The notes beneath the pieces were generated by a model, which ran no database searches, was not told the DNA's origin, and was given only the letters and a program-made list of their open reading frames with translations. A stretch of 61,716 bases of DNA, filler included, from Vannella sp. (lineage: Eukaryota): the NCBI GenBank assembly GCA_023345925.1. It is 6 parts of 6 records of this genome, joined end to end, with 100 filler letters (N's around TTAATTAATTAA, not from the genome) between each part and the next. Parts side by side here need not be neighbours in the genome. Positions count along the whole stretch, not along the records: positions 31,472 to 44,161 come from JAJQQN010000976.1; 5 more parts are not named here. One strand, 5' to 3'. The position numbers and the translations under genes were made by a program. This document shows positions 31,472 to 51,584 of this stretch, in pieces. Every line of letters starts with the position of its first letter. The stretch's first letter is position 1.

Positions 31472-31890
31472 GGACTGACCACGACGTTTCCATCACCGGA
31501 TTCATCCCCTTCGATGAGGAGTTCTAGTTTGACTGTGCAGTTCTTACACTCGCCTATAGGGTAGTGTGCAACTTAGAATGGGGACAGAAGGGAAGAGAGG
31601 GGAGTAGTCTCTGGCGTACCATCGCAGTCGCAGTCGCGAGTGTACTGAAAACTGTCGATTGCGTCTGAAGTCAGCGGAATGAGGCCGAGGCGATGAGCAA
31701 TGAACTCATCATTGAGACAGCTTTCATTCCTGTGGATCTCCACAATATCAATGCACATGGTAGGCACTTCACAGATCATCACCCTCCGCAGAGAGTTTGC
31801 CATGCTCAAGTCCGTCCCTGACAGCGTAAAAGTTGCCACAAGTTTGTCAACATTCATGTTCGACACGGTCGCAGGTCGCACCAAAGCCAT
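31472..31890 (-). CDS. POLR2C: RNA polymerase II subunit RPB3 (3' truncated)
   Basis: [39 protein letters not shown]. Confidence 0.93.
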
Positions 31891-32018
31891 CTCCCAACAC
31901 GCCCTCGAACGGCTCCCAACAAAAAATGAACTCTCCGACCACTCCCTGTCTGTTCTATCTGATTTTATTTGTTTTTTAATCGGATGAATGGAAAAGGGTC
32001 ATTCTGCAGTGGCCTAGG

Positions 32019-33387
32019 ATGGATGGAAACGGGCGCTTTTATGCTTCTGGAGCGAGTGGTTATCATCAGTGTGAGTGTGTAGAGATGAGGGTGATCGGTT
32101 CTGAAGTGTGGGGGTAGCTATGCACCCCACTACGATGCATAATGGAGGGAGGCCGCCCTTCTCAGGGACTGTGGCCCCGGGAGGAAGTGGTATGTACGGC
32201 GTGTATACAGGTGCCCCTTCAAGTGGGTATCTGCAACAAAACATGGGTTCGACGGCCCCAACGCGTCCCACCTCGCAACACATCGCTCCTTCAGACCCTC
32301 GCGCAGCTTCTTCCATGATGGCGAGCTCCTCAGCGGCCCCTCGCATGATGCCGAGTTCTATGGGTAATGTACCATCAAGGTATCCATCAATGGCAGCGCC
32401 AACTGGTCGCAGTGGCTACAATCCAGCTCAGATGCCAACGTACCAACCTACACCTTCCTCTTGTTCGTTACTCGCTCCTCTCTCTGGATCCTCCACTGGC
32501 TCACACATACATGGGGTATAGATGGACAGCACATGAACTTTATGCCTTCATCTCAGCGTGTAAACACCTTTGAATCCGAGTTCCCCGCTTTAGGGTCCTC
32601 TCAAGGTGACTACTTGCCTCTCCTTTGAGTTGCTTGCCACAGGGAACCTCACAATACTCATAGGAGGAGTCTCAAAGTCACCACCACGAGAGTTTAGCTT
32701 GAACCAAGAAGAGTTCCCAGCACTCGGCGCTCCTCCGACCGCGAAGACGGGAAGATCGCCGCACCAGAGCTTCGAAGGCCAACCTGGAGCACCCCGCGAC
32801 TATCTGGAGTCCCCCATGTACTTCAACCCTCCCGAAACAACCGTACGAGCGCTCCCGCACCTCGAAAACACCGTTTCTGATCGAGGTTGGGCCCGGGACA
32901 GAAGGCAGACATGAAGTACGGCATGCAAGCTCTTCGACAGAACATGGCACACCCTACGGTACGTGACCTAGCTCGAGGAGTGGATGTTGCCAAGTTAGGA
33001 CTGGAAATCACGTCCCCCAACACCTTGTACGACTCCTTCTCATCGATCCTGATGGATCCCAGTGAAAGAGTCGTTACTGCGTCGTACAAGCTCCCAGAGA
33101 TTGGCCCTGTCCACGAAAAGGCCAACTTTGACGACGGGAGCCTCTTCTTCATGTTCTACGCAGCTCCTCGCGATCAGATGCAGTTAACAGCAAGCAGCAT
33201 GTTGTACCAACGAGGCTGGCGCTTCTACAAAAGGGACGGCCGTTGGTACCGGCCCACTGGATGGGGGACAGAAAGTGTGTCAGCCAAACGCACTAGTTTC
33301 GACTATTTCGAGCCCATGGAGTGGAAGATCCTGGTGGTAGAGAACTCTGCTCTGGACTTCCAAGACTTTGAAGTCCTCTCGTCATGA
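32019..33387 (+). CDS. CNOT2: CCR4-NOT subunit NOT2
   Basis: EFPAL motifs, YGMQAL, LARGVDVAKLGL, LFFMFY..PRDQMQL.A...LYQRGWRF NOT-box. Confidence 0.85.
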
Positions 33388-33467
33388 GACTTGGTCTAAT
33401 CCGTCCCAATGAATGATTCAACTCAGCTTCTGGCTCTCCTCTGACGCGCTGTGAGGTTTGTTTATAG

Positions 33468-36400
33468 TTAAGCAGGTTGTGACACAGACCAGTTCTGTAA
33501 CAAAGTGTCTTGCACAGGTTCAGATAGCTGCCCAATGGCAAAGGACTTGTTGGCACTGCGAACAGTCCCATCAAGTGACTTCATCACTTCTCTGATGATG
33601 TCCTTGGCTCCTTCTTCTGCACAAAGAACGTTGGTTCCTTGTACTAGAACATGAGAGTGGGAAGGATCCCGCTTAACGCACAGGTGCAAGACACCTTTGA
33701 GTTGATTCATGTCCCCGCTCTTTTTGGCTTTTCCTGTCCCCAGAAGAGTCTGCGCAGCCGACTGATCAAGAGATTGGACAAAGTTCTCCAAAGATTCGTT
33801 CACCAAGTGAAGCCGGACAGACTTGGAGAGCGACGGGAAAGGGGACGAGAAAGTGCGAAGGGACTGGAAGAGAAGTTGTTCGCGAATTTTGAGGTTTTGG
33901 GACTCCAGGACCTTCTTCTTGAGAGTCAGTTGCTGGGTTAGTAGCTTAATATCGCTAACAGGCACCCCCAGAACTTCAGCAGTGGACTGAGCATAGCCGA
34001 GATGCTGGTCAAGATACTTTTCTGCGGCATCTCCGCTCAACGCTTCAATCCTGCGGATGCCTGCTGCCACAGAACTCTCCGAAACAATGATAAAGGGAGA
34101 GATAGCACCCGTCTGCCTCACGTGAGTGCCTCCACACAGCTCACGGGAGCAGAAATCAAGCTCGCTTTGGGGGTCAAAGACATCCACAACCCGAACAGTA
34201 TCAGAATACTTGTCACAGGAGTCCAGTGAGATAGCACCACTACCGATAGCATCATCATAAGACTGCTGCTTGGTTTCAACAGACAAGTTCCGACGAATGT
34301 TGTTTCGAACAATGTCTTGGACTTGCTTCAATTCAGAAGCTGTCAGAGGCTGGGGGTGGGAAAAGTCAAAGCGAAGACGGTCTGGACCAACATAGCTTCC
34401 GGCTTGGTGGACACTGTTCTCCCCAAGGACTTTCCGTAAAGCCGCATTCAAAAGGTGGGTGGCAGTGTGGTTGCGACTGCAGCGGTCGCGATTCGTTTCA
34501 TCGACAACAGCTCGAAGGAAGTTTGGTTCTCCAAAGTTTTTGTGCTCAAGAAGGCGCTGCCAAGTGGCTTCCGAATACTCTGCCACGAGAATGTTGTTTG
34601 CGTTGCTCATTGTAACGCAATTGGTGACTTCAATGCGTTCCCCAGTGGGAAATTGAAGATACCCACAGTCTCCTTTCTGGCCACCTCCTTCTGCGTAGAA
34701 CGGAGAGGGGTCAATACAGATGAAGATGCTCTTGTCGGTTCGGCCCTCTTCCAAGGCAAATCCGACTAGTTTGGAGGTTTCCTCGGTTTTCTGATAGCCT
34801 GTGAATACAACTGGATCTACCCGATTGGAAAGGAGCTGGAGAAGGTCGTTCTTGAGGAAGCTAAGACTGAAAAGACTCTTCCAAGTGCCTTTGCTCCGCT
34901 CTCGCTGCTCTTCTAAGAGCATATTGACAGCTGTAAAGTCGATTTCGTAGCCCACCTTCTTAGCATAGATGCTTGTGAGGTCCAAGGGGAAGCCCATCGA
35001 GTCATACAATGAAAATACGAGTTTTGGGGGGAGCACTGGACGGGACTCTGGCCTCAATAAGCTGTCCCCTGGTGTTGCTCTTCCACAGGAGGTATCAAAA
35101 TAATCATCAAGCACCTTCAGGCCTTGATGAATGACCTTGTGGAAGAGCTGCTCCTCTTGAGTGAGGAATTGACATATCATAGACTGTCTTTCAATGAGCT
35201 CTGGATAGGCCCCTCCCAAGGTTTGCAAGACAGAAGGATAGAGAAGCTCGAGACAGGGTTCACGGGCTCCCAACAGGTGAGTCTGGAGGATGAGCCGGCG
35301 GAGGATGCGGCGAAGGACATATCCTCGTCCTGTGGCAGCGGGGGTGATTCCATCAGCTATCATAATAGATGCAGATCGCATGTGATCGATGATGATGCGA
35401 AGAGAAACGCTGGCCTCCATCACAGCAGGAATTCTGTGCGCCTCTTCAGAGAAGTCGGCATAAGGAATGTCCTTCTGAGTGATGGAGGACAGAGTAGCTC
35501 TGGCGTGCTGAATCATCGTTCGAAGAGAGTCTATTTGGAAGCAAGAATTGGACGTGCCCTGAACCACAGAGGCCAAGCGCTCTAATCCCATTCCAGTGTC
35601 CACGCAATGTCCGCCCCGTAGAGGTTCCCAGTCCTCTGGGACCCACTGGTAAGAGTTTCTAGGCCTTCCATTGTGTTGATATTGCATGAAGACAAGGTTC
35701 CAGACCTCCAGGCAATTGGGATCGTCCGTTGGAGGAAGTTCTCGGGAGAAGCTTGGATTCTCCGAAAAGTCAAAGTAGATCTCCGTACACGGACCACAAG
35801 GAAGCCCAGGGTCACCGCCCATGCTCCAGAAGTTGTCTTTCATGCTACAATCCCACGCAATCTTGCCATGGTCGCGCGCCCAGATCTCCCTCGCCTCGTG
35901 GTCGCTCTCATGGACTGTCACTTTGAGTCTTCGATGATCCAAGCCAACCCTGCTCTCATACAACATCATGTGTAAGTAACAAACGCAAGAGACTGGCTTG
36001 GAACGCACTCTTTGGTGAGGAACTGCATCGCGAGGTAGATTGCGTCGCGTTTGTAGTTGCCTGAAGCAGGAGGGAGCTGGAATGACCCGCACATCTCAAA
36101 GAAGCTGAAGTGACGACGACTAACACCCACATTCTCCAAGTCGCAGTCCTTCCCACCCGCTCGCACACACTTTTGCACTGTGGTGAGGTTTCTCTCCTGC
36201 TCTGTGCTATCCCGGCGACTTAGAGACAGGCCAAATGAAAGAAGGAAGCACTACAAAGGTAGTACGCCATACCTGTGGTCGGGATTGAGGATGCGGTCCT
36301 TGAAAGGGACCATCCCCGCAGACGTGAACAACAAAGAAGGGTCCTGGCGCGGTACAACCGAAGCAGAAGGAAGAGCACGGTACCCATTCCTCACATAGAA

Positions 36401-36487
36401 GTCTGTGAACTTCTCTCGGATGCTGTTGGTGCTTATCCAGCGCTTCCCAGCCGAAAGAGGAGTTCGGGGGTTGGCTACCCGCCACAT
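33468..36487 (-). CDS. AARS2: Alanyl-tRNA synthetase (mitochondrial-type)
   Basis: [58 protein letters not shown]. Confidence 0.93.
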
Positions 36488-36567
36488 CTCCTCGTCCTGG
36501 GGCAAATGACCACTCGTGGACACTCCTAAGTGTGATACAACCATTCCTTATCGTCGTCCTGGTGCAG

Positions 36568-37499
36568 ATGGAGTCCCTGGTGGCTGGAGCAGTCCAAGTT
36601 CTGATGACGGCGGACACTACAGCGAAGGCTGAGCTCACTGAAGTGGTTGCGGGCGCCTGGCAGAGAGGAGAGATCCCAAATGTGATGCTGGGCGACTCTG
36701 AGCGCGAGACTCCGCCTCGCGAGCCAGCTCGCCCTTCCGATATCCTTTTGGTTGAGCCCAGGCTCGCTCCTAAGCGTGGGAAGGGTGGTATGGAGCTCCT
36801 CTGACTCCCATTGTACCTCCTTATCGTATGAAAGGGACCGCTAAGAGCCGGATGGCTATGATCCACTCCCTCGTCCACATCGAGTCTGTCGCGATTGATT
36901 TATCGTGGGATATCATCGCTCGCTTCCAGTCAGACGACTTACCGAGAGAGTTCTATGATGACTTTGTCCGGATAGCTCAAGACGAGGCCAAGGTAGCTCT
37001 GGGAAGGTGCAAGGGAGAGTTTCAGCACTAACCGAAGGTGTAGCACTACACCATGTTGAAGCAACGGCTTGAGGAGCTGGGAGGGCATTACGGAGACTTT
37101 GAGGTACACTCTGGTCTTTGGCAGAGTGCTCTACAGACAGCTGATCACTTGATCGACCGTTTGGTGATCGAGCATATGGTTCATGAAGGGCGTGGACTGG
37201 ATGTAACTCCTCTGACTATCGACAGACTGAGGAAGAACGGAGATGGTGTATCTGCCACACTGCTGGAAGAGATCCTGGAGGACGAACTCACCCATGTCTC
37301 GGCTGGTCTCAAGTGGTTCACCTTCCTGCACCGCCGAGAGCAGCCCAACGCCTCACAGGAGCAAGTCATCGCTCACTTTCACCAAGTGGTACGCAGGAAC
37401 TTCCGTGGCAACCTCAAACCTCCCTTCAACGATGCGATGCGCACTCGCGCCGGAATGACCCCCGAATGGTACATTCCTTTGACCCATGATGAGCTGTGA
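36568..37499 (+). CDS. DUF455 (HI0077-like) ferritin-like protein
   Basis: PARP, IHSLVHIESVAIDLSWD, DEAKH, HSGLW, HEGRGLDV, DELTHV, LKPPFN. Confidence 0.88.
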
Positions 37500-37812
37500 T
37501 ACCCTACACCCCCTCCTTATACAATGAAGAGCCACACTCTAGCACAGAATAGCTCAGCAGCCTGAACCGTCTTCTTCCTCCGCATTCCTGCCATCCACAC
37601 CCTGCATGACGCTCCCGAACAGCTCCTGAAGAGCTCCCTACAAGAGTACAGTCTCTTACGAGGTGCAGCACCTACCCAGGACTCCTCCCGTACTTTCAGT
37701 GAGCCAGTGGAGAAGGAAGAGGGAAGAAGACTCTTCCAAAGCGTCCTCTGGCAAGGTAGTTGGGATGCTCAGAAGTGAGGGACGAGCATACAACGGAGGG
37801 AAGCATCTTTTG

Positions 37813-39019
37813 ATGGCCGAGTTGACGGAGTTGGCGACGGAGTCCAACAAATGGACGTTTTCCTCGTCGGGTGGCCGTTTGTTGAGGTGGGTGGAGTTAT
37901 GAGGGTTGTAATGGAGTCACAGAGTGACAAGTTATCAGGTGGGAGAGCTACGATCCTCGGACGAAGGTCTGGCGCTTGTTATGCGACGGAGACGCTCGTC
38001 TTCCTCCCACGGAGGACTGTTTCAAGGGCAGCTTGCTCTTTCCATGGTGCAATCGCATTGCAGGCGTATCCTACCTCACAGAGGATGAGAAGGGTGAACT
38101 GAGCGTCCCTGTGCCCGTCAAACAAGAGAAGAATGGCCATCTTCATGGAGGAGAGGTTGCGGATGCTTCTTGGACGCTTGTGAGCGTTAAGCCAGCAAGT
38201 GAGGTTGTCTACAAGCTAACCATTGATCCCTCAAAGTCAGAGTACTACCCACATGGGCTCCAGTGCACTGTACGGTACCAAGTGGTGGGTTTGGGTCCTT
38301 CTCGTGAGGAAGACTCGGGAGAGGTCCAGCAGGACGCAGAGGAAGCCTCTGTCCTTGCGACCATCAACAGCGAAGCCAAGATACCTTCCTTCTTTACTGT
38401 GGATGAGTGCTTACAAGCCAAGGACCCGGAGGAAGAAGCTTTGGTGGAAGGCTTGCGCGTGGAGATTGAAGTAGAGAGCGTGGAGCAGAAGAAGGACGCT
38501 TGGGTTGGTTTAGGTGCTCACTTGTACTTCAGAAACCCCTTTGGAGGACCCATCAACGAGCTGAGCATGGCGCTTCGAGTGAAAGGAGAAGTTGTTGTGG
38601 ACGAGGCTCTGATTCCTCTTCATCCGGTCCAGATAGTCGATCCTCCTCTTGACCATGACTTTGACAGCCTTCTCCCTCGCCCTCTGGGCGCCATAGAGCT
38701 CGATAACTGCTTCCAATTGGACTTGGAGGTCGCAGAGGAAGAAGAGGGTGCTGCGCTTGCTGTCTTGCAGAAGGATCACTTCTTGTTAGAAGTGATACCA
38801 GAGAGAACAGAAAGCCGTGCCAGAGGGCATGAAGGGAAGCCAGCCGTCCAATTCCTGCAGGTTTATACAATTCCGGACCGAAGTTGCATTGCCCTTGAGC
38901 CGCAAACTTCACTCGCCAATCACTTCTCCTATCCGTATGATCCTTCTTATGCCAACAATATTCTGAAGCCTTCTCAGTCCCTTCTGTTCTCCACCCTCTA
39001 TTTGGTGACTTGGTCCTAA
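37813..39019 (+). CDS. Aldose 1-epimerase / galactose-mutarotase-like protein
   Basis: GGRLL, LFPWCNRI, HLHG, YP, GAHLYF, DNCF, QVYT, IALEPQT. Confidence 0.8.
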
Positions 39020-39951
39020 CTGACTTCGAAGTGGGATTCTCTCGTGCCAGCTCCTCCAATTATGGCATCATCTCTTAAGCCATCCCACTTCTAAGTAAAG
39101 GAACTTTGGTTTGGCTCTTCCACTCTGCAATCATGTCATTGAGTGACAAAGGACATTTTCCCACTCGGATAACACTGACTTGGAGTTGAGACCATGTCGT
39201 AATGCGGCCCGGATGTATCAATCGAGCCTTGTTAGGACCTTCTAGTTTCCTAGGCCGGAGGGGGAACTCCTTGGAAAGGGTAAACAAGTCGACAGAGTGA
39301 GGGGAATGGAGGTTGGGGCGCTGTGCAATAGGTAGAGGCCCAACATACATATCAAGATAGTTGTCCATGTATCCTTCATTGAAAAGGATGCGCTACAGCC
39401 CTGGCGAAGGTCTCGGGCCGTGCAAAGAGAGGCTTGAGTAGGTCGCCAACTTGTATCAAAAGTCCGCCACTTCCACTAACTTGACCAAAGCTGCTCCATC
39501 TGCAATTCATTGGAAGACTGAGAGTTGACTGCCCACTAAACCATGTCCTTTGGTTGTATCTCATCGGTTGTGGCCTTGTTTAGGCGTTGCCTACCTCGTG
39601 CTTTTAACTGGAGAGGACCACTGAGTGCATTTCTTGAGTAATCTCATGTCCACAAAGTACAACTGAATACAACCGGCTCTCCTTCGAAGTCCTTGAAAGC
39701 GCTCATGGACCGAGACATGGAGAAGGGTCCAGGCCATTGAGGGTGATTCCCCTTCTCTTGGCGGGCCAAACCCTTGGAAAAGTCTCGACCAATCCACACC
39801 GACCGATCGATCGCTCCGGAGAGATTCGCCGGATCGATCGATCGCTCCGGAGATTCACCAATTAGACGTGTCCTTGTGGCTGCACACGCGTTGGGCATGT
39901 TTTAAAGTTCTGTTCCAGTCCTCCGTTCACTTTTGTTTGGACCGCGGCTGA

Positions 39952-42900
39952 ATGCGCCTCTGCAGATCTCTTCTTCTTTTGGTGTTCGTCTCGAACTCCT
40001 TTTGCATCTTGCCCGCCTCTGAGATGGTCTCTCTGGACGAGCTCTTCGTTGCCACCATTCAATCTGGATTGCCGAACTGGAACTCAGAACCCGACTATTG
40101 CCAACGAGTTGGCGTGATGTGTGACTCTGGAGGTTCAACAGTTTTGGAGCTCCATTTTGCCGACTTGAACTTGGCAGGGTCGTTTCCCTCTTTATCCAAT
40201 CTGACCAACCTCGCTCGACTGTATGACCCGTCAATTCTTCGTGTGTTCACCTGTTTCTCACAGCTCTTAGGAACTTTAGTGGAAACCTGATCTCAGGACC
40301 CCTCCCGGTTTGGAATCTGACCTCTCTGGCGTACAATGTAAGGAACGGCCTGCTGTTTGCATTTGGTGCTTTCCTGATCATGGACATCAAGGGACTTGCG
40401 TTCCAATAAGATCAATGGACCCCTTCCCAATTGGAACTTGGCGAACCTGGTGTACATGTAAGAAGGGGCCTTCTCTTTGCATTTGGTGCTTTCCTAATCA
40501 TGAACATCAAGGGACTTGCGTTCCAACGAGATTAATGGAACCCTTCCGAATTGGATCCTTCCCAACCTGTTGGCTATGTAAGGAAGAGCCTTCAGTTCAT
40601 GTAAGGAAGGGTCTTCTCTTTGCACATGGTGCATTGCTGATCGTGAACACCAAAGGGTCTTGCTATCCAACCAGATCAATGGACCCCTTCCGAATTGGAA
40701 CTTGCCGAACCTTCAGTACATGTAAGGAAGGGCCTTCTGTTTGCATTTGGTGCTTTCCTGATCACGAACATTAAGGATCTTGCAATCCAACCAGATCAAA
40801 GGACCCCTTCCGAATTGGAGCTTGCCCAAGCTCATTTACATGTAAGGAAGGGCCTTCTCTTTGCATTTGGTGCATTGCTGATCATGAACATCAAAGGGGC
40901 TTGTCTGGCAACAAGATCGATGGAGCCCTTCCCAATTGGATCCTTCCCAAACTACAAGACATGTAAGGAAGGGCCTTTTCTTTGCATTTGGTGCTTTTCT
41001 GATCATGAACATCAAGGCAGCTACATTCCAATCAGATCTCAGGACCCCTTCCCAATTGGGACTTGCCGAACCTGGTGTACATGTAAGGAAGGGTCTTCTC
41101 TTTGCATTTGACGCGTTCCTGATCTTAGATATCAAGGCAGTTGTTTAACAACAAGATCAATGGGCCTCTCCCCAATTGGATCCTTCCCAGACTACTAGAC
41201 ATGTGAGGAAGTCTTTGCATTTGGTGCTTTCCTGATCATGAACATCAAGGCAGTTGTATTCCAACCAGATCTCGGGAGCCCTTCCCAATTGGGACTTGCC
41301 GAATCTTCAGTACATGTAAGGAAGGGCTTCTGTTTGCTTTTGGCACATTGCTGATCATCATTTGCAGGGACTTGTCTTCCAATCAGATCTCGGGACCCCT
41401 TCCCAATTGGAACTTTGAACTACGCACTCTGTGAGCCCCTCTCCCAACTTGGCATTCTGAATTTGACAAACGGCCATCAAAAGATACTTGTCAGCCAACC
41501 AAATCACCGGAACGCTCCCATCTTGGAATTACACGAAGTTGGAGAAGTTGTGAGGTCCCATTCTGTTGATCCATTTCGTGTCTAACGAATGCCTTTCAAA
41601 CAGGAGACTCAACAGCAACCTGATTCAAGGAGAAGTACCGTCTTGGCCAAATCTACCACTTTATGCAGGCCCTCCAATGTAAGTTCACTCCCCAAGGACC
41701 TTCCTCTTCTTTCTTATTATCTTTCAGACTGCTGGATGACAACTTCTTGTGTGGACCTCTCCCTTCAGTCTTAGGCTCTCCACCTCCCCTGGGAGTCCCA
41801 AATGCCACACTCCAAGCGAATGGATCATCAAACTTTGAGTGTCCTGTTCCTCCTTATTGCACAAACTGTAACTGCTCCCAATCCTTCCTTTGCCCTACCC
41901 TGTCGGCGACGCCATCCTTCTCCCCAACTCCTTCTTCCTCGGTAACTCCATCCTCCTCAGAAACGCCATCCTCTTCGGTAACGCCATCCTCTTCGGTAAC
42001 GCCATCCTCCTCGGAAACCTCCTCGGAGACACCATCCTCCTCGGCAACGCCATCGGAAACGCCATCCTCTTCGGCAACGGAATCAGAAACGCCATCCTCT
42101 TCGGCAACGCCATCAGAAACGCCATCCTCCTCGGTAACGCCATCGATAACGTCATCGGAAAGTCCATCCTCTTCGACAACTCCATCGGAAAGTCCATCCT
42201 CTTCGGCAACGCCATCCTCTTCAGCAACGCAATCGGAAACGGCTTCCTACTCTGCGTCTCCATCCGAAACGGCATCCCCCTCGACAACGGCATCAACTTC
42301 GGTAACAGTATCCTCCTCGGTATCTCCATCGGAAACGCTTTCCTCATCGGCAACGGAATCCTCCTCGACCACGCCATCAATTTCTCCGTCCTCTTCGGTA
42401 ACAGCATCCTCCTCAGTTTCTCCGTCGGTAACGGCATCCCCCTCGGCATCTCCGTCGGAAACGCTATCCCCTTCGGTAACAGCATCCTCCTCGGTAGAGC
42501 CATCCTCTTCGGTAACACAATCCTCTTCGGAAACGCTATCCACTTCGGTAACAGCATCCTCCTCGACCACGCCATCGATAACGCCATCCTCTTCGGTCAC
42601 ACCATCCTCCTCGGCATCTCCGTCGGAAACGCTATCCCCTTCGGTAACAGCATCCTCCTCGACAACGCCATCGATAACGCCATCCTCTTCGGTATCGCCG
42701 TCCTCCTCGGTAACGGCATCGGCATCGGCAACGGGATCATCTTCGATAACATCCTCCTCGACGACGCCATCCTCTTCGGTAACGCCATCCTCTTCTATAA
42801 CGCCATCCTCTTCGGAAACGCCATCGAAAACTCCACCCTCTTCGGCATCTCCATCTGAAACACCATCCTCCTCGGTAACGGCATCCTCTTCGATAACTCC

Positions 42901-43855
42901 ATCCTCTTCGGCAACTCATTCGGAAATGGCATTCTCTTTGAAAACACCATCGCCCTTAGTCACGCCATCTACTTCGGGAACGGAATCTTCCTCGGTGATG
43001 CCTATTTCTTCGATAATGGCATTTTCCTCAGAGACACCTTCTTTTTCGATGGCACCCCCTTCGAAGACAGTGGCCTCCTTGAGAACGGCGTCTTCCTTGG
43101 CAACGGCAACCTCCTTGAGAATAGAATCCTCCTCAGCGACTCTATCAGAAACACCGGTAACATCCTCCCCATCCGCAAGCCCTCTTGTTGCAGCAAGTGG
43201 CACGCTTCCTCCGTTCCAGCGCTGGGAGCTGGAAGGGGTAATTGTGACGATTGCGAGAGACTCATTTCCAGTGGGCGGGAGTGTCACAGTGCTTCCCTCT
43301 CTGACGGTAGAAGAGCCTGCTTCCATCACACTTCAATCAACCCGGATGGAGATCGTCGTCCAAGACGACGATGGTACAAGCAGTTCCCTTTCAAGCGCTG
43401 GCGAGGCTTGCTTCGCTCTATTCCCACCCCAACGCAGCCTCGACGAGTACTGCGTGGTTGCCCTTGAGAGAGGAAACATCCAGTGCGTCAGCGCAGGTCT
43501 GTACAAGAGCAGTCCAGACGGAACGGACAAAGCTTGTGGGGATGTCCGATTCTCTTCCGGCCGATTTAGCGTCGGGTTTCGTTCTGATGTCGACCAAGCG
43601 CGTTCTCTGTCTGCCACTCCTCTTCCGTCTGCATCTGCTCATCTTCTTCCCACGGTAGTGGAGGTCCCCATTCCGGTCCCGTTCCCCGTTCCTGTTCCCG
43701 TTCCCCAACCAATCCCTGGTCCTGTCCCTAATCCTGCTCCCCAACCAATCCCGGTTCCTGTTCCCAACCCTGTTACTGTCCCGTTCCTTGATAGTTCTCC
43801 TGCAACGGCCTTGATTGGATGGATGGCTATCACCGGGTTTGTGATGGCTGTTTAA
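39952..43855 (+). CDS. Cell-surface LRR receptor-like protein (SP-LRRNT-LRRs-Cys cap-S/T/P stalk-GAIN-like-VP repeats-GPI-type tail), 14 exons
   Basis: Exon 1 39952-40220; single-LRR exons at 40271, 40392, 40512, 40656, 40776, 40897, 41017, 41137, 41250, 41368, 41484, 41604; last exon 41728-43855. Confidence 0.85.
40338..41430 (+). repeat. Tandem ~120-bp intron+exon array (9 units)
   Basis: Intron consensus gtaaggaagggccttctctttgcatttggtgctttcctgatcatgaacatcaag followed by a 66-nt LRR exon (last one 63 nt). Confidence 0.95.
41900..42920 (+). repeat. Degenerate coding minisatellite (TPSSSV/E/A-type stalk repeats)
   Basis: Repeated ccatcctcttcggtaacg-like 18-mers. Confidence 0.9.
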
Positions 43856-44161
43856 GATGCCAAAGCCCTTCCTCTTCTTAACCTTCGTTTTGCCAAGTTC
43901 CATAAACTATCTTCTGATAACCAACCAAGGGACCCTTAGAGTCTCTGTCCCCACTTGTTTGCCATCTATCTCACGTATCCGTTCACTTGCAAGTACGAAG
44001 AGAGGTGCGACCATTCACTGGCACGTCGGTGCGACGAAAAAGCAAACAACATCAACGCGATCGCCGCCACCATCACTCAAGTCCACCACCAATGAACCAT
44101 CTAAGATTGGGGTGTTTACTTTGGTTCCTGGACCAATTGGGACGAGTGGTCCAAGATCAAG

Positions 44162-44262: not shown

Positions 44263-44466
44263 TTCGGAGTTCCTGTCCAGGTTCCAGTTCCAGTTCCAGT
44301 TCCAGTCCCGGTTGAAGTGCCCGTACCAGTTCCAGTACCTGTGCCGGTATCAAGTCCTGCTCCCGTTCCTATTCCCGTTCCTGATGGTCCAAAAGACAGC
44401 GGGGTAGCTTCCAGTGTGCCACTTCTCTTCTTCCCGGCTTTTATTCTTGCAGCTTTGCTTTTCTAG
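44263..44466 (+). CDS. 3' end of a VP-repeat, GPI-type surface protein (partial)
   Basis: FGVPVQVPVPVPVPVPVEVPVP...DSGVASSVPLLFFPAFILAALLF*. Confidence 0.7.
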   Translation, partial: FGVPVQVPVPVPVPVPVEVPVPVPVPVPVSSPAPVPIPVPDGPKDSGVASSVPLLFFPAFILAALLF

Positions 44467-49046: not shown

Positions 49047-51168
49047 TTATTGACTTGAGTGACCGCCGCCGCCTTCATGGCGATTTTGAACGCGCTGGAG
49101 AAGGGTTGTGATGGTTGTTACTTTCTGTTCAACTTGCGCCTGGTACTGCCGAGTGAGGTTATTGAGTTGAAGTGCCATGTCGAGATTCAATCGGATAAAG
49201 TTAGACACTTCCGAGACCAGCTTGCGGTCGTCATCCAGGGCCAGGGAAAGTGGCGACGCTTTGTGCATTTCCAAGACTTTCTTGAGTTCCTGAACAATAG
49301 ACGCTTCGCTGTCTTCTGTTTTAGTCCTCTTGGTGGGATAATCTCGGTCAGCGGATGGAGAACGGCTTCGCTTTCTGAGCGGTGCTTCTCGAGGGTCCTT
49401 TCTTGTATCTGTTTCTGCCCAGCGGTTCGGAGCTGGAGAGTAAGACCCAGAGAAGCTGTCGTCTTTCTGACGCCAATCGTCTCTTCGAGAAGCTGGGGAA
49501 TGAGGCTCTGGGTAAGAAGATTCTGCCACCCGGCGGGTCTGGTCAAATGGTGGCCTGTGAGAAGATGCACCAGGGGTTGGTCCACTCCTTCCTGAATCAC
49601 TCGAATGACTCGGAGTAGACGGACAAAACACGGGATTGGATTGGCGTCGTACTCGAAGTGCCTTAATAGCACTCAAAGCCTCCGGCTCCTTATGAAGATT
49701 CCCTTTCACCATCTCCTCCAAGTCAGCAACACCAATGGGAGCATCGGCAGGAAACACAAATTGTTCGTTCTCTGTCCGGGCAAGACTCAAAAAGGCACAT
49801 TTGATCATTTCCTGCTGTTCCAAGCTAAACAGATCCGCGAAAGTCTCTTTCAAAGCTCCCTACAAGGAAAACAGAAGTTAGGAGGGTTCGTAGAAAGTGA
49901 CTTGGACTTACTCGGAAGATGCGAAGTGCTTTGCTGTACTTTAAATGATTCGTTTTGGCACTCTGATAGATGGAAAGGAGGTTCTTGTAGAGAGTCTCCA
50001 AGTCTCCCTCTCCTAAGGAGCGACTGAGTGAGTCCAGTGTCCGTGAGAAGAAGAATCCCATCTCATCAGCGCCAGTCTGATGGCGAGGGGACTGGTTATC
50101 GGAGAGGTCTTGTCGTGTGGTGGCTAGGAACGAGTCTAATTCATCGTTTGTCATCTTCTTGATGTGGCGGAACGTTGCTTCGGGGTAGCTCTCCACCACA
50201 AGCTCCTGTTGGCCTGCGGACTTCCGGATGATTCCACCTGGCGCTTGGCCCTTCGTGGGCATAGCACCTACTGGGTCGGTCGTGTAAGAGGAGGTCTTTG
50301 CGCTTGAGCTACTGTCTGTGGTGGTCCACCCACTGGCAGAGGGGGATGGCTTCGTCTGCCAGCTGGAAACCTCAGAAGTCGTGTTCCATCCACTGGCAGA
50401 GGCGGCCTTCGCCTGAGAACTACTGTCTGTGGTGATCCAACCACTAGAAGAGGCGACCTTCGCCTGAGAGCTACTGTCTGTGGTGGTCCACCCACTGGCA
50501 GAGGGAGAAGGCTTCACCTGCCAGCTGGAGACCTCAGGAGTCGTGTTCCATCCAGTAGTAGAGGTAGAAGGGGATGTAGAAGTGTTGGTTGTTGCCCAGC
50601 TGGAAGAGGGAGAGGCTGTGTTCCATCCAGACGAGCCAGAGGAGGAAGTTGTGCCCCATCCAGCCTGTGCTGCGCTCTTCGGTGCTTGTTCCTTGATAAC
50701 GATGTTCTTGATAACACTCTGCACCACAGAGTCACGAGAGAAGTCCAGGGTAACCGGTACTGGCGGAGGAGGAGCTCTTCGTGGTCTCTCATCTCTGTCT
50801 AGCCGTTTTCCTCTAGCAGGAGGCTCTGAAGAGCGCGCATGAGCTCTTTCTACCACCTGGGGAGGTACTTCTACGACTTTGTGCTCCTCTTCGCCCTCCT
50901 CCCTCTCAGCTTCCTCTTCTTGTCCTTTCTCTTCCGTCTCCTCCTCTTCTGTGTCTCCAGGTTCTTCTTCATTCAATTCTTCAGGTGGGGTGACATCATT
51001 CACTTCATCTTGAGGGAGGGGAGAGTCCTGCAGCTGCCCATCAACGGAGAGTTCCATCACCTCGTCCTCGTCCTCTTCGCTCGAGATCGCCAGGATCTCC
51101 CGTGCTTGTTCCTCCTCACAATGATGCGTCTGGGACTCCATCAACGCATCCAAGCCCAGCGGTGCCAT
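49047..51168 (-). CDS. Hypothetical low-complexity protein with acidic N-terminus and S/T-rich GW repeats
   Basis: Two long ORFs joinable by an intron near 49860-49910; seven GW dipeptides. Confidence 0.7.
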
Positions 51169-51584
51169 CAACCCGAGGCCCGGAAGAAATGACCTGTCAC
51201 TTTCGGCTCGTTTCCCTCCTCCTTTGAAGTGACACTTCAAGGGAGGCCACAAGAAGGAGAGCACAGTGTTCGCTCCCTCCACTCTCAATACGGAGTTTCC
51301 TCGCTCTCAACCGAAGGATGAAGCAGCCTTCTTTCAGAGCGCCATTCACACCCTTCTGACCAGACAAGTACTGGTAGATTAGGAACGACTGATAGAAGAA
51401 GGCTGCACCCTTCCCGGCAGAATCAAGAAACAGGAGGAGCTTCCCGCCAAGTGAGTTCGAGAACCGTTCAAATGCGAACGGAAGAGGAAGAGGAAGAGAG
51501 GAGTTGCCAAAGCGTTTCTCTGTGAAGATAGGTCTCCGTAACTCCTTCAGGCCACCTTCAAACCACCTTCAGACGAAAGCTTCA

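What the first reader, a model, noticed from the sequence alone, without database searches (positions are those of the whole stretch)
40392..41430. Hypervariability concentrated at the LRR concave-face codons
Seen: the cassette starts read DLRSNK, DLRSNE, VLLSNQ, ILQSNQ, GLSGNK, QLHSNQ, QLFNNK, QLYSNQ, DLSSNQ. The ends read VY, LA, QY, IY, QD, VY, LD, QY. The GPLPNW scaffold and the introns barely change. Knowledge: the x positions of LxxLxLxxN form the ligand-binding concave surface. Inference: diversifying selection or targeted diversification. The beta-strand is split by the intron, so recombination inside an intron re-pairs the two variable halves.
Basis: partly seen in the sequence, partly recalled or inferred. 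Interest (0 to 1): 0.78.

Follow-up and report, generated by a model that had tools for sequence, protein, structure and literature searches.

The report
Protist surface protein with variable repeats
A gene from an unnamed microbial eukaryote builds a likely cell-surface protein from one-repeat-per-exon leucine-rich modules whose predicted binding-face residues differ most between modules and whose module number differs between copies, a known design with only weak signs of selection and none of a special shuffling mechanism.

Summary
The listed residues are real. Eight 66-nt exons and one 63-nt exon each encode one LRR (22 residues; 21 for the short exon). Phase-2 introns cut the central strand codon, the known plant LRR-kinase intron position. 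The gene encodes a signal peptide, LRRs, an S/T/P stalk and a hydrophobic tail (likely GPI-anchored).

Strand-face codons evolve fastest: omega 1.4-2.0, against 0.54-0.64 at other exposed sites and at most 0.03 in the scaffold. Omega above 1 is only weakly supported: p<0.05 in 1 of 8 fixed-site and 2 of 8 M2a/M1a variants. Four off-face positions vary nearly as much, and introns differ at 13-21% of sites.

Intronless bacterial arrays of nearly the same repeat show the same pattern (omega 1.58 in one of two tested), so introns are not needed. Re-pairing across introns could not be told from re-pairing within exons.

Added here: one intron holds the scar of a deleted cassette that appears intact in two related runs, and an exon-2 frameshift is polymorphic. 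The array is still changing. Brown-algal ROCO genes are the precedent, and this scan has noted similar arrays on other DNA.

The parts
39952..40220 (+). Exon 1: predicted signal peptide, N-terminal LRR cap and start of first LRR
   Evidence: hydrophobic windows at residues 3-9; cap homologs
40271..40337 (+). Exon 2: LRR cassette of 67 nt; one extra base near 40335 shifts the frame (stop at codon 118)
   Evidence: base present in contigs of runs X1 and X2, absent in X3 (tables 4 and 8)
40392..41315 (+). Exons 3-10: eight 66-nt phase-2 exons, one 22-aa LRR each (40392-40457, 40512-40577, 40656-40721, 40776-40841, 40897-40962, 41017-41082, 41137-41202, 41250-41315), with 47-78-nt look-alike introns
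40589..40600 (+). Scar of a deleted cassette inside intron 40578-40655: the last 12 nt of an exon followed by a second GT donor
   Evidence: joint 40826->40589 with 3 letters between in X1 and X2 gives 51+3+12 = 66 nt (table 5)
41368..41430 (+). Exon 11: 63-nt (21-aa) LRR cassette
41484..41678 (+). Exons 12 (41484-41549) and 13 (41604-41678): divergent terminal LRRs
41728..43855 (+). Exon 14: last LRR, Cys-rich cap, about 350-aa Ser/Thr/Pro stalk, about 160-aa domain of no Pfam family, Pro-Val linker, hydrophobic C-terminal tail (likely GPI signal)

Best explanation
This gene encodes a plant-type LRR protein, likely displayed on the cell surface on a Ser/Thr-rich stalk with a predicted GPI anchor, built from one-repeat exons whose strand-face residues likely change under relaxed-to-mildly-positive selection for recognition while ordinary duplication, deletion and likely conversion change and mix the cassettes. 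Shown: the exon and intron anatomy, the ranking of omega (scaffold at most 0.03, other exposed 0.54-0.64, strand face 1.4-2.0), a cassette-deletion scar whose intact form lies in related runs, a frameshift polymorphism, and close paralogs. Inferred: symmetric phase-2 exons let cassettes be gained, lost or skipped in frame; exchange homogenises introns and exon cores more than the variable codons; the ligand is external (prey, parasite or kin) and variable.
For: Anatomy. Omega classes; strand face vs other exposed sites p=0.002. M2a vs M1a on 9 cassettes: LRT 8.62, p=0.013, picking x2 and x7; 1 of 32 neutral mosaic simulations reached 8.62. Strand register: (bacterial stand-in P0242, folds like plant LRR ectodomains). 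Cassette gain/loss, and paralog cassettes with new strand residues around a conserved core and intron end: tables 5, 7, 8; P0122, P0123, P0129. Precedents: PMC3341825, PMC11378527, PMC3050792 (passages).
Against: Omega above 1 is significant in only 1 of 8 fixed-site variants and 2 of 8 M2a/M1a variants, and M2a/M1a is not significant in any of the 4 variants where the exon halves get separate trees. One of two bacterial arrays tested gave omega 0.72. A PHI-like test found no distance decay (p=0.67), so conversion is inferred, not located. The window's copy is frameshifted in exon 2 and may be a decaying pseudogene. Expression and splicing are unshown: the RNA run X4 laid one contig, partly, outside the array. 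The GPI anchor rests on hydropathy only. The contig evidence comes from one study, mostly at depth under 6.
Confidence: 0.62

Rival explanations
1. Relaxed constraint only: exposed x positions drift near neutrally while the buried scaffold is fixed and the short introns are constrained or homogenised, which makes the strand look hypervariable.
For: Fixed-site tests cannot reject omega=1 in 7 of 8 variants. All x positions pooled give omega 0.99. Off-face positions 12, 14, 19, 22 also vary. The copy carries a frameshift.
Against: Strand-face omega exceeds that of other exposed sites (p=0.002). x2 and x7 are picked as positive in most variants. The neutral simulation rarely reaches the observed LRT (1 of 32).
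Confidence: 0.25
2. Intron-directed combinatorial shuffling: conserved introns act as the preferred crossover sites and re-pair the two halves of each strand.
For: Introns are more alike than synonymous sites (0.13-0.21 vs 0.43). The longest identical tract between units (28 nt) is intronic, and site incompatibility is 27 of 30 across the intron vs 15 of 30 across the core.
Against: The across-core count does not differ from random pairing (p=0.21), and the across-intron count drops to 16 of 24 against a null mean of 15.0 without the scar junction. Exons 3 and 4 share 5' ends but have different 3' types, a within-exon break. The one deletion that can be mapped joins an intron start to an exon end, not intron to intron. 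Intronless bacterial arrays show the same concentration. The intron position is the conserved plant one.
Confidence: 0.09
3. Programmed or enzyme-targeted diversification (VLR-like cassette assembly or hypermutation) within a clone.
For: Several array forms occur within one study's runs. The domain order resembles lamprey VLR.
Against: The gene is complete in the genome, not an incomplete germline gene. No flanking donor cassettes were found: the 11 motif matches in six frames of the window all lie in the gene. Synonymous change is not raised at the variable codons and adenine-rich Asn codons are stable.
Confidence: 0.04

Closest known systems
Type I LRR exons of brown-algal ROCO genes (Ectocarpus, PMC3341825; Saccharina, PMC11378527; passages read)
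   Same: One LRR per exon, phase 2, cassette number varying between copies, inactivated cassettes in introns, pseudogenes, fastest sites on the concave face.
   Different: Here 66-nt/22-aa rather than 72-nt/24-aa; the intron cuts the main strand; an extracellular stalked protein with no ROC-COR domain; positive selection only weakly supported.
Intron-rich plant LRR receptor kinases (ERECTA, SERK; rice group 5; PMC3050792, passages read)
   Same: [quoted passage not shown]
   Different: 22-aa repeat, recent tandem copies with look-alike introns, no kinase or cytoplasmic part.
Bacterial secreted proteins with 22-aa LxxLxLxxNQLSGxIPNFNLPN arrays (P0239-P0250; loci L001, L002)
   Same: Nearly the same repeat, and the same or sharper concentration of variation at x2, x3, x5, x7, x8.
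   Different: No introns; other C-terminal domains.
Lamprey variable lymphocyte receptors (PMC3308329, passages read)
   Same: Signal peptide, N-cap, variable LRRs, C-cap, Thr/Pro-rich stalk; GPI anchor of VLRB (recalled).
   Different: VLRs are assembled somatically from intronless flanking cassettes; nothing of the kind was seen here; different LRR class.
Tetrahymena 90-bp-exon LRR genes (PMC6564038, passages read)
   Same: Tandem one-repeat exons with phase-2 introns in a protist, proposed to evolve by unequal crossing over.
   Different: Different repeat length and class; no associated retrotransposon was looked for here.

Membership tests
One-LRR-per-exon shuffled arrays (ROCO-type design) | Each repeat on one symmetric phase-2 exon | tested here: met
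One-LRR-per-exon shuffled arrays (ROCO-type design) | Cassette gain or loss between copies | tested here: met
   scar and joint, (low-depth contigs, one study)
One-LRR-per-exon shuffled arrays (ROCO-type design) | Positive selection on concave-face sites | tested here: inconclusive
Brown-algal ROCO proteins | ROC-COR GTPase domain, 72-nt exons | tested here: not met
   no Pfam hit in the last exon; exons are 66 nt
Plant-type LRR solenoid | LxxLxLxxNxLxGxIP consensus with two strands per repeat | tested here: met
   fold of bacterial relative P0242 only; the window's spliced protein was not folded
Plant LRR receptor kinases | Transmembrane helix followed by a kinase | tested here: not met
   the protein ends in the hydrophobic tail
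Agnathan VLR | Incomplete germline gene plus flanking donor cassettes | tested here: not met
   complete gene; no cassette matches outside it in the window; rest of genome not held
Agnathan VLR | Somatic or clonal assembly | not testable with these tools
   needs clonal long reads
GPI-anchored surface proteins | Signal peptide plus C-terminal omega site and hydrophobic tail | tested here: inconclusive
   hydropathy only; no predictor was run

The most novel reading that the evidence does not exclude
A free-living protist keeps a VLR-like repertoire of stalked, GPI-anchored LRR receptors that it diversifies within populations or clones, by exchanging, deleting and splice-skipping 66-nt cassettes among paralogs. 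That would be a convergent variable-recognition or antigenic-variation system in a single cell.
Probability: 0.1. Interest if true: 0.72.

Novelty: new member of a known kind. Interest (0 to 1): 0.33.

Why it matters
It adds an unnamed protist lineage to the organisms (brown algae, ciliates, plants) that build fast-changing LRR surfaces from one-repeat exons, here on a VLR-like stalked surface protein, and it catches a cassette deletion with both forms still present. The intronless bacterial arrays are a ready control showing that strand-face variability needs no intron-based mechanism. It would matter much more if clonal diversification were shown.

Tried and rejected
No whole genome is held. 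The exon-1 word search among longer proteins gave 0 of 222 candidates at E<=0.001. The metagenome scan matched 6 stretches, 3 confirmed, and returned 0 loci, so paralog DNA could not be codon-aligned and a per-site profile over paralog contigs is missing. The cassette-profile search returned 64 proteins; by source names and Pfam content none was recognisable as a spliced paralog. Lineage: the neighbouring alanyl-tRNA synthetase has only unnamed close relatives (54-60%), so the organism stays unplaced. The post-stalk domain has no Pfam hit and an Atlas best score of 0.82 (G8 domain, a weak lead only). Mantel tests found no correlation between any halves of the unit (r -0.10 to 0.15; low power, n 7-9). 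The RNA run X4 does not cover the array, which proves nothing. Paper searches for a GPI-anchored or 66-bp-exon protist LRR family found 0 papers; this is no proof of absence. No look-alike of this DNA among earlier scan findings. Adenine-directed mutagenesis was rejected because the AAT codon of position 17 is invariant in 8 of 8 cassettes.

Full report
Setting. The window is a string of contigs joined by N spacers; the gene lies on the piece 31472-44161. Short GT-AG introns and eukaryotic neighbours (an ATG4-type peptidase, NFRKB, a kinase) mark a eukaryote. No genome is held, and the closest relatives of a neighbouring alanyl-tRNA synthetase are unnamed (54-60%). The stretch is held by three biofilm metagenome runs of one study, one of which may be its source.

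Gene anatomy. Fourteen exons run from 39952 to 43855. Exon 1 gives a hydrophobic N-terminus and an LRR N-cap. Exons 3-10 are 66 nt each, exon 11 is 63 nt, and the introns are phase 2 except after the 67-nt exon 2. The last exon gives a Cys-rich cap, about 350 residues of 68-82% Ser/Thr/Pro, a domain without Pfam match, a Pro-Val linker and a hydrophobic tail with nothing after it. A GPI anchor is inferred from hydropathy only. The repeat is LxxMxLxxNxIxGxLPNWxLPx. The split codon is position 4, so x2 and x3 end one exon and x5, x7, x8, x10 start the next.

Observation. The listed residues are exact. On 8 cassettes, amino-acid diversity at the six strand-side x positions is 0.73 vs 0.20 elsewhere (p=0.0016), but 0.73 vs 0.51 against the other six x positions (p=0.092). 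Positions 12, 14, 19 and 22 reach 0.61-0.82. Introns differ at 0.13-0.16 of sites, 0.17-0.21 in their interiors, well below synonymous sites (0.43). The longest identical tract between any two units is 28 nt, so the array has not been homogenised wholesale recently.

Structure. The spliced protein was not folded. A bacterial relative with the same 22-aa repeat (P0242; 65% identical over half of the 44-aa query) folded at mean pLDDT 84 with a strand at repeat positions 3-5 and a second at 10-13, and matched plant LRR ectodomains. So x3 and x5 lie on the main sheet, with x2, x7 and x8 flanking it. That this sheet is the concave, ligand-binding face is established knowledge, also stated in PMC3341825.

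Selection. I wrote GY94 codon models in a script. With sites fixed in advance, omega is at most 0.03 for the scaffold, 0.54-0.64 for other x and 1.4-2.0 for the strand face, over 8 variants (8 or 9 cassettes, two codon frequencies, one tree or one per exon half). The test against omega=1 gave p 0.042-0.35, under 0.05 in 1 of 8. Strand face vs other x gave p=0.002 in both sets tested. M2a vs M1a gave p=0.013, 0.036, 0.055 and 0.16 on one tree and 0.12-0.81 on split trees; x7 was picked in 8 of 8 and x2 in 7 of 8. One of 32 neutral mosaic simulations reached the best LRT. Corrected nonsynonymous distance at the strand face (0.82) is 1.3 times the synonymous distance (0.63) but 3.4-5.7 times the intron distance (0.14-0.24); introns are probably a constrained or homogenised yardstick. 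Exons 2, 12 and 13 were left out as divergent. Verdict: fastest on the strand face, and weakly above neutral.

Control without introns. The cassette profile's best hits (64 listed) are intronless proteins with nearly the same repeat. Two loci are bacterial by record (L001, L002); the other top hits are taken as bacterial from their domain content (inference). One weak hit is a Diphylleia protein. In the 10 of 64 that I profiled, chosen for 22-aa periodicity, diversity at x3, x5, x7 and x8 is 0.64-0.97; in the nine non-Diphylleia arrays the scaffold positions are far less variable. At DNA level, strand-face omega was 1.58 in L001 (13 repeats, p=0.12) and 0.72 in L002 (23 repeats, far more diverged); L003 and L004 had too few repeats. 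The pattern is therefore a property of this repeat type and needs no intron.

Shuffling. Pairing of 3' and 5' halves was compared with random pairing: 15 of 30 site pairs were incompatible within exons (null mean 18.6, p=0.21) and 27 of 30 across introns (null 20.4, upper p=0.046), falling to 16 of 24 (null 15.0) without the scar junction. Both are near random. Exons 3 and 4 share their first 14 nt yet have different 3' types, which needs a break inside an exon. Intron 40578-40655 is 23 nt longer than its neighbours and contains an exon end and a second donor, joined to the intron start at a shared CCTTC. Contigs in X1 (depth 2.2) and X2 (3.6) join an exon-6-like cassette at 40826 to 40589 with 3 letters between, which makes exactly 66 nt: the lost cassette, ending L-Q-F, appears intact there; the 3 letters themselves were not shown. 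The extra base in exon 2 is in X1 and X2 and absent in X3. These are alleles or very recent copies, from low-depth contigs of one study. Skipping exon 2 would leave an open 1042-residue frame; whether that happens is untested.

Paralogs. Exon 1 found 109 proteins at E<=0.001. The closest are P0121 (98%), P0129 (84% over 38 residues, running into the array out of frame), P0122 (60%), P0123 (53%) and P0131 (43%), mostly read-throughs of unspliced DNA on short contigs. P0123 ends in a cassette with E, R, D at x5, x7, x8. Loose ends, translated by hand (4 of the 19 shown; 48 more were not shown), give F-L-Y-D and Y-L-Y-N starts and Q-H and V-S ends around the conserved core, in one case beside a nearly unchanged intron end. 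This extends the pattern beyond the window but was not counted statistically.

Comparison. Brown-algal ROCO genes have one LRR per 72-nt exon, intronic inactivated cassettes and positively selected concave sites (PMC3341825, PMC11378527; passages). Rice LRR-kinase introns split the first Leu of xxLxLxx in phase 2, the position seen here (PMC3050792; passages). Tetrahymena has 90-bp phase-2 LRR exon arrays (PMC6564038; passages). VLRs share the domain order but are assembled somatically (PMC3308329; passages). No supplements were read. Three searches for a protist GPI-anchored or 66-bp-exon LRR family returned 0 papers. Earlier scan notes describe similar arrays in fungi, octopus and another protist (unchecked).

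Verdict. Real, a new member of a known kind. The deletion caught in both states and the VLR-like layout in a protist are the points of interest. Strong diversifying selection and intron-directed re-pairing are not established. Interest 0.33.

Noticed in passing
window 44263-44466 (+), start of the next contig: A C-terminal fragment with a Pro-Val linker, small residues and a hydrophobic tail like that of the LRR gene; probably another GPI-type surface protein.
   Followed up: no
window 43181-43660 (+): A Cys-containing domain of about 160 aa between stalk and linker has no Pfam match; Atlas gives only a weak G8-domain lead (0.82).
   Followed up: partly
P0239-P0250, L001:2501-4309, L002:2501-4837: Bacterial secreted-type proteins carry intronless 22-aa LRR arrays with a nearly fixed scaffold and hypervariable strand positions; the protist repeat resembles them more than plant repeats, which raises an untested question of shared origin.
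   Followed up: partly
window 40776-41315: Cassettes alternate between two 3' types and TRF finds a 241-nt period: a two-cassette duplication unit.
   Followed up: partly
window 39923-40059 and 40868 (run X2, record 8; P0129): A close paralog (15 differences in 137 nt) jumps from exon 1 into the array, probably an internally deleted pseudogene.
   Followed up: partly
window 33468-36095 (-): Long alanyl-tRNA synthetase ORF whose named relatives are bacterial (about 37%), with five unnamed closer hits (37-60%); probably the organellar enzyme.
   Followed up: no
window 50286-50629 (-), in ORF 49825-51306: Ser/Thr/Gly/Trp-rich 17-aa repeats (about six GW motifs) in a protein with no Pfam match.
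   Followed up: no
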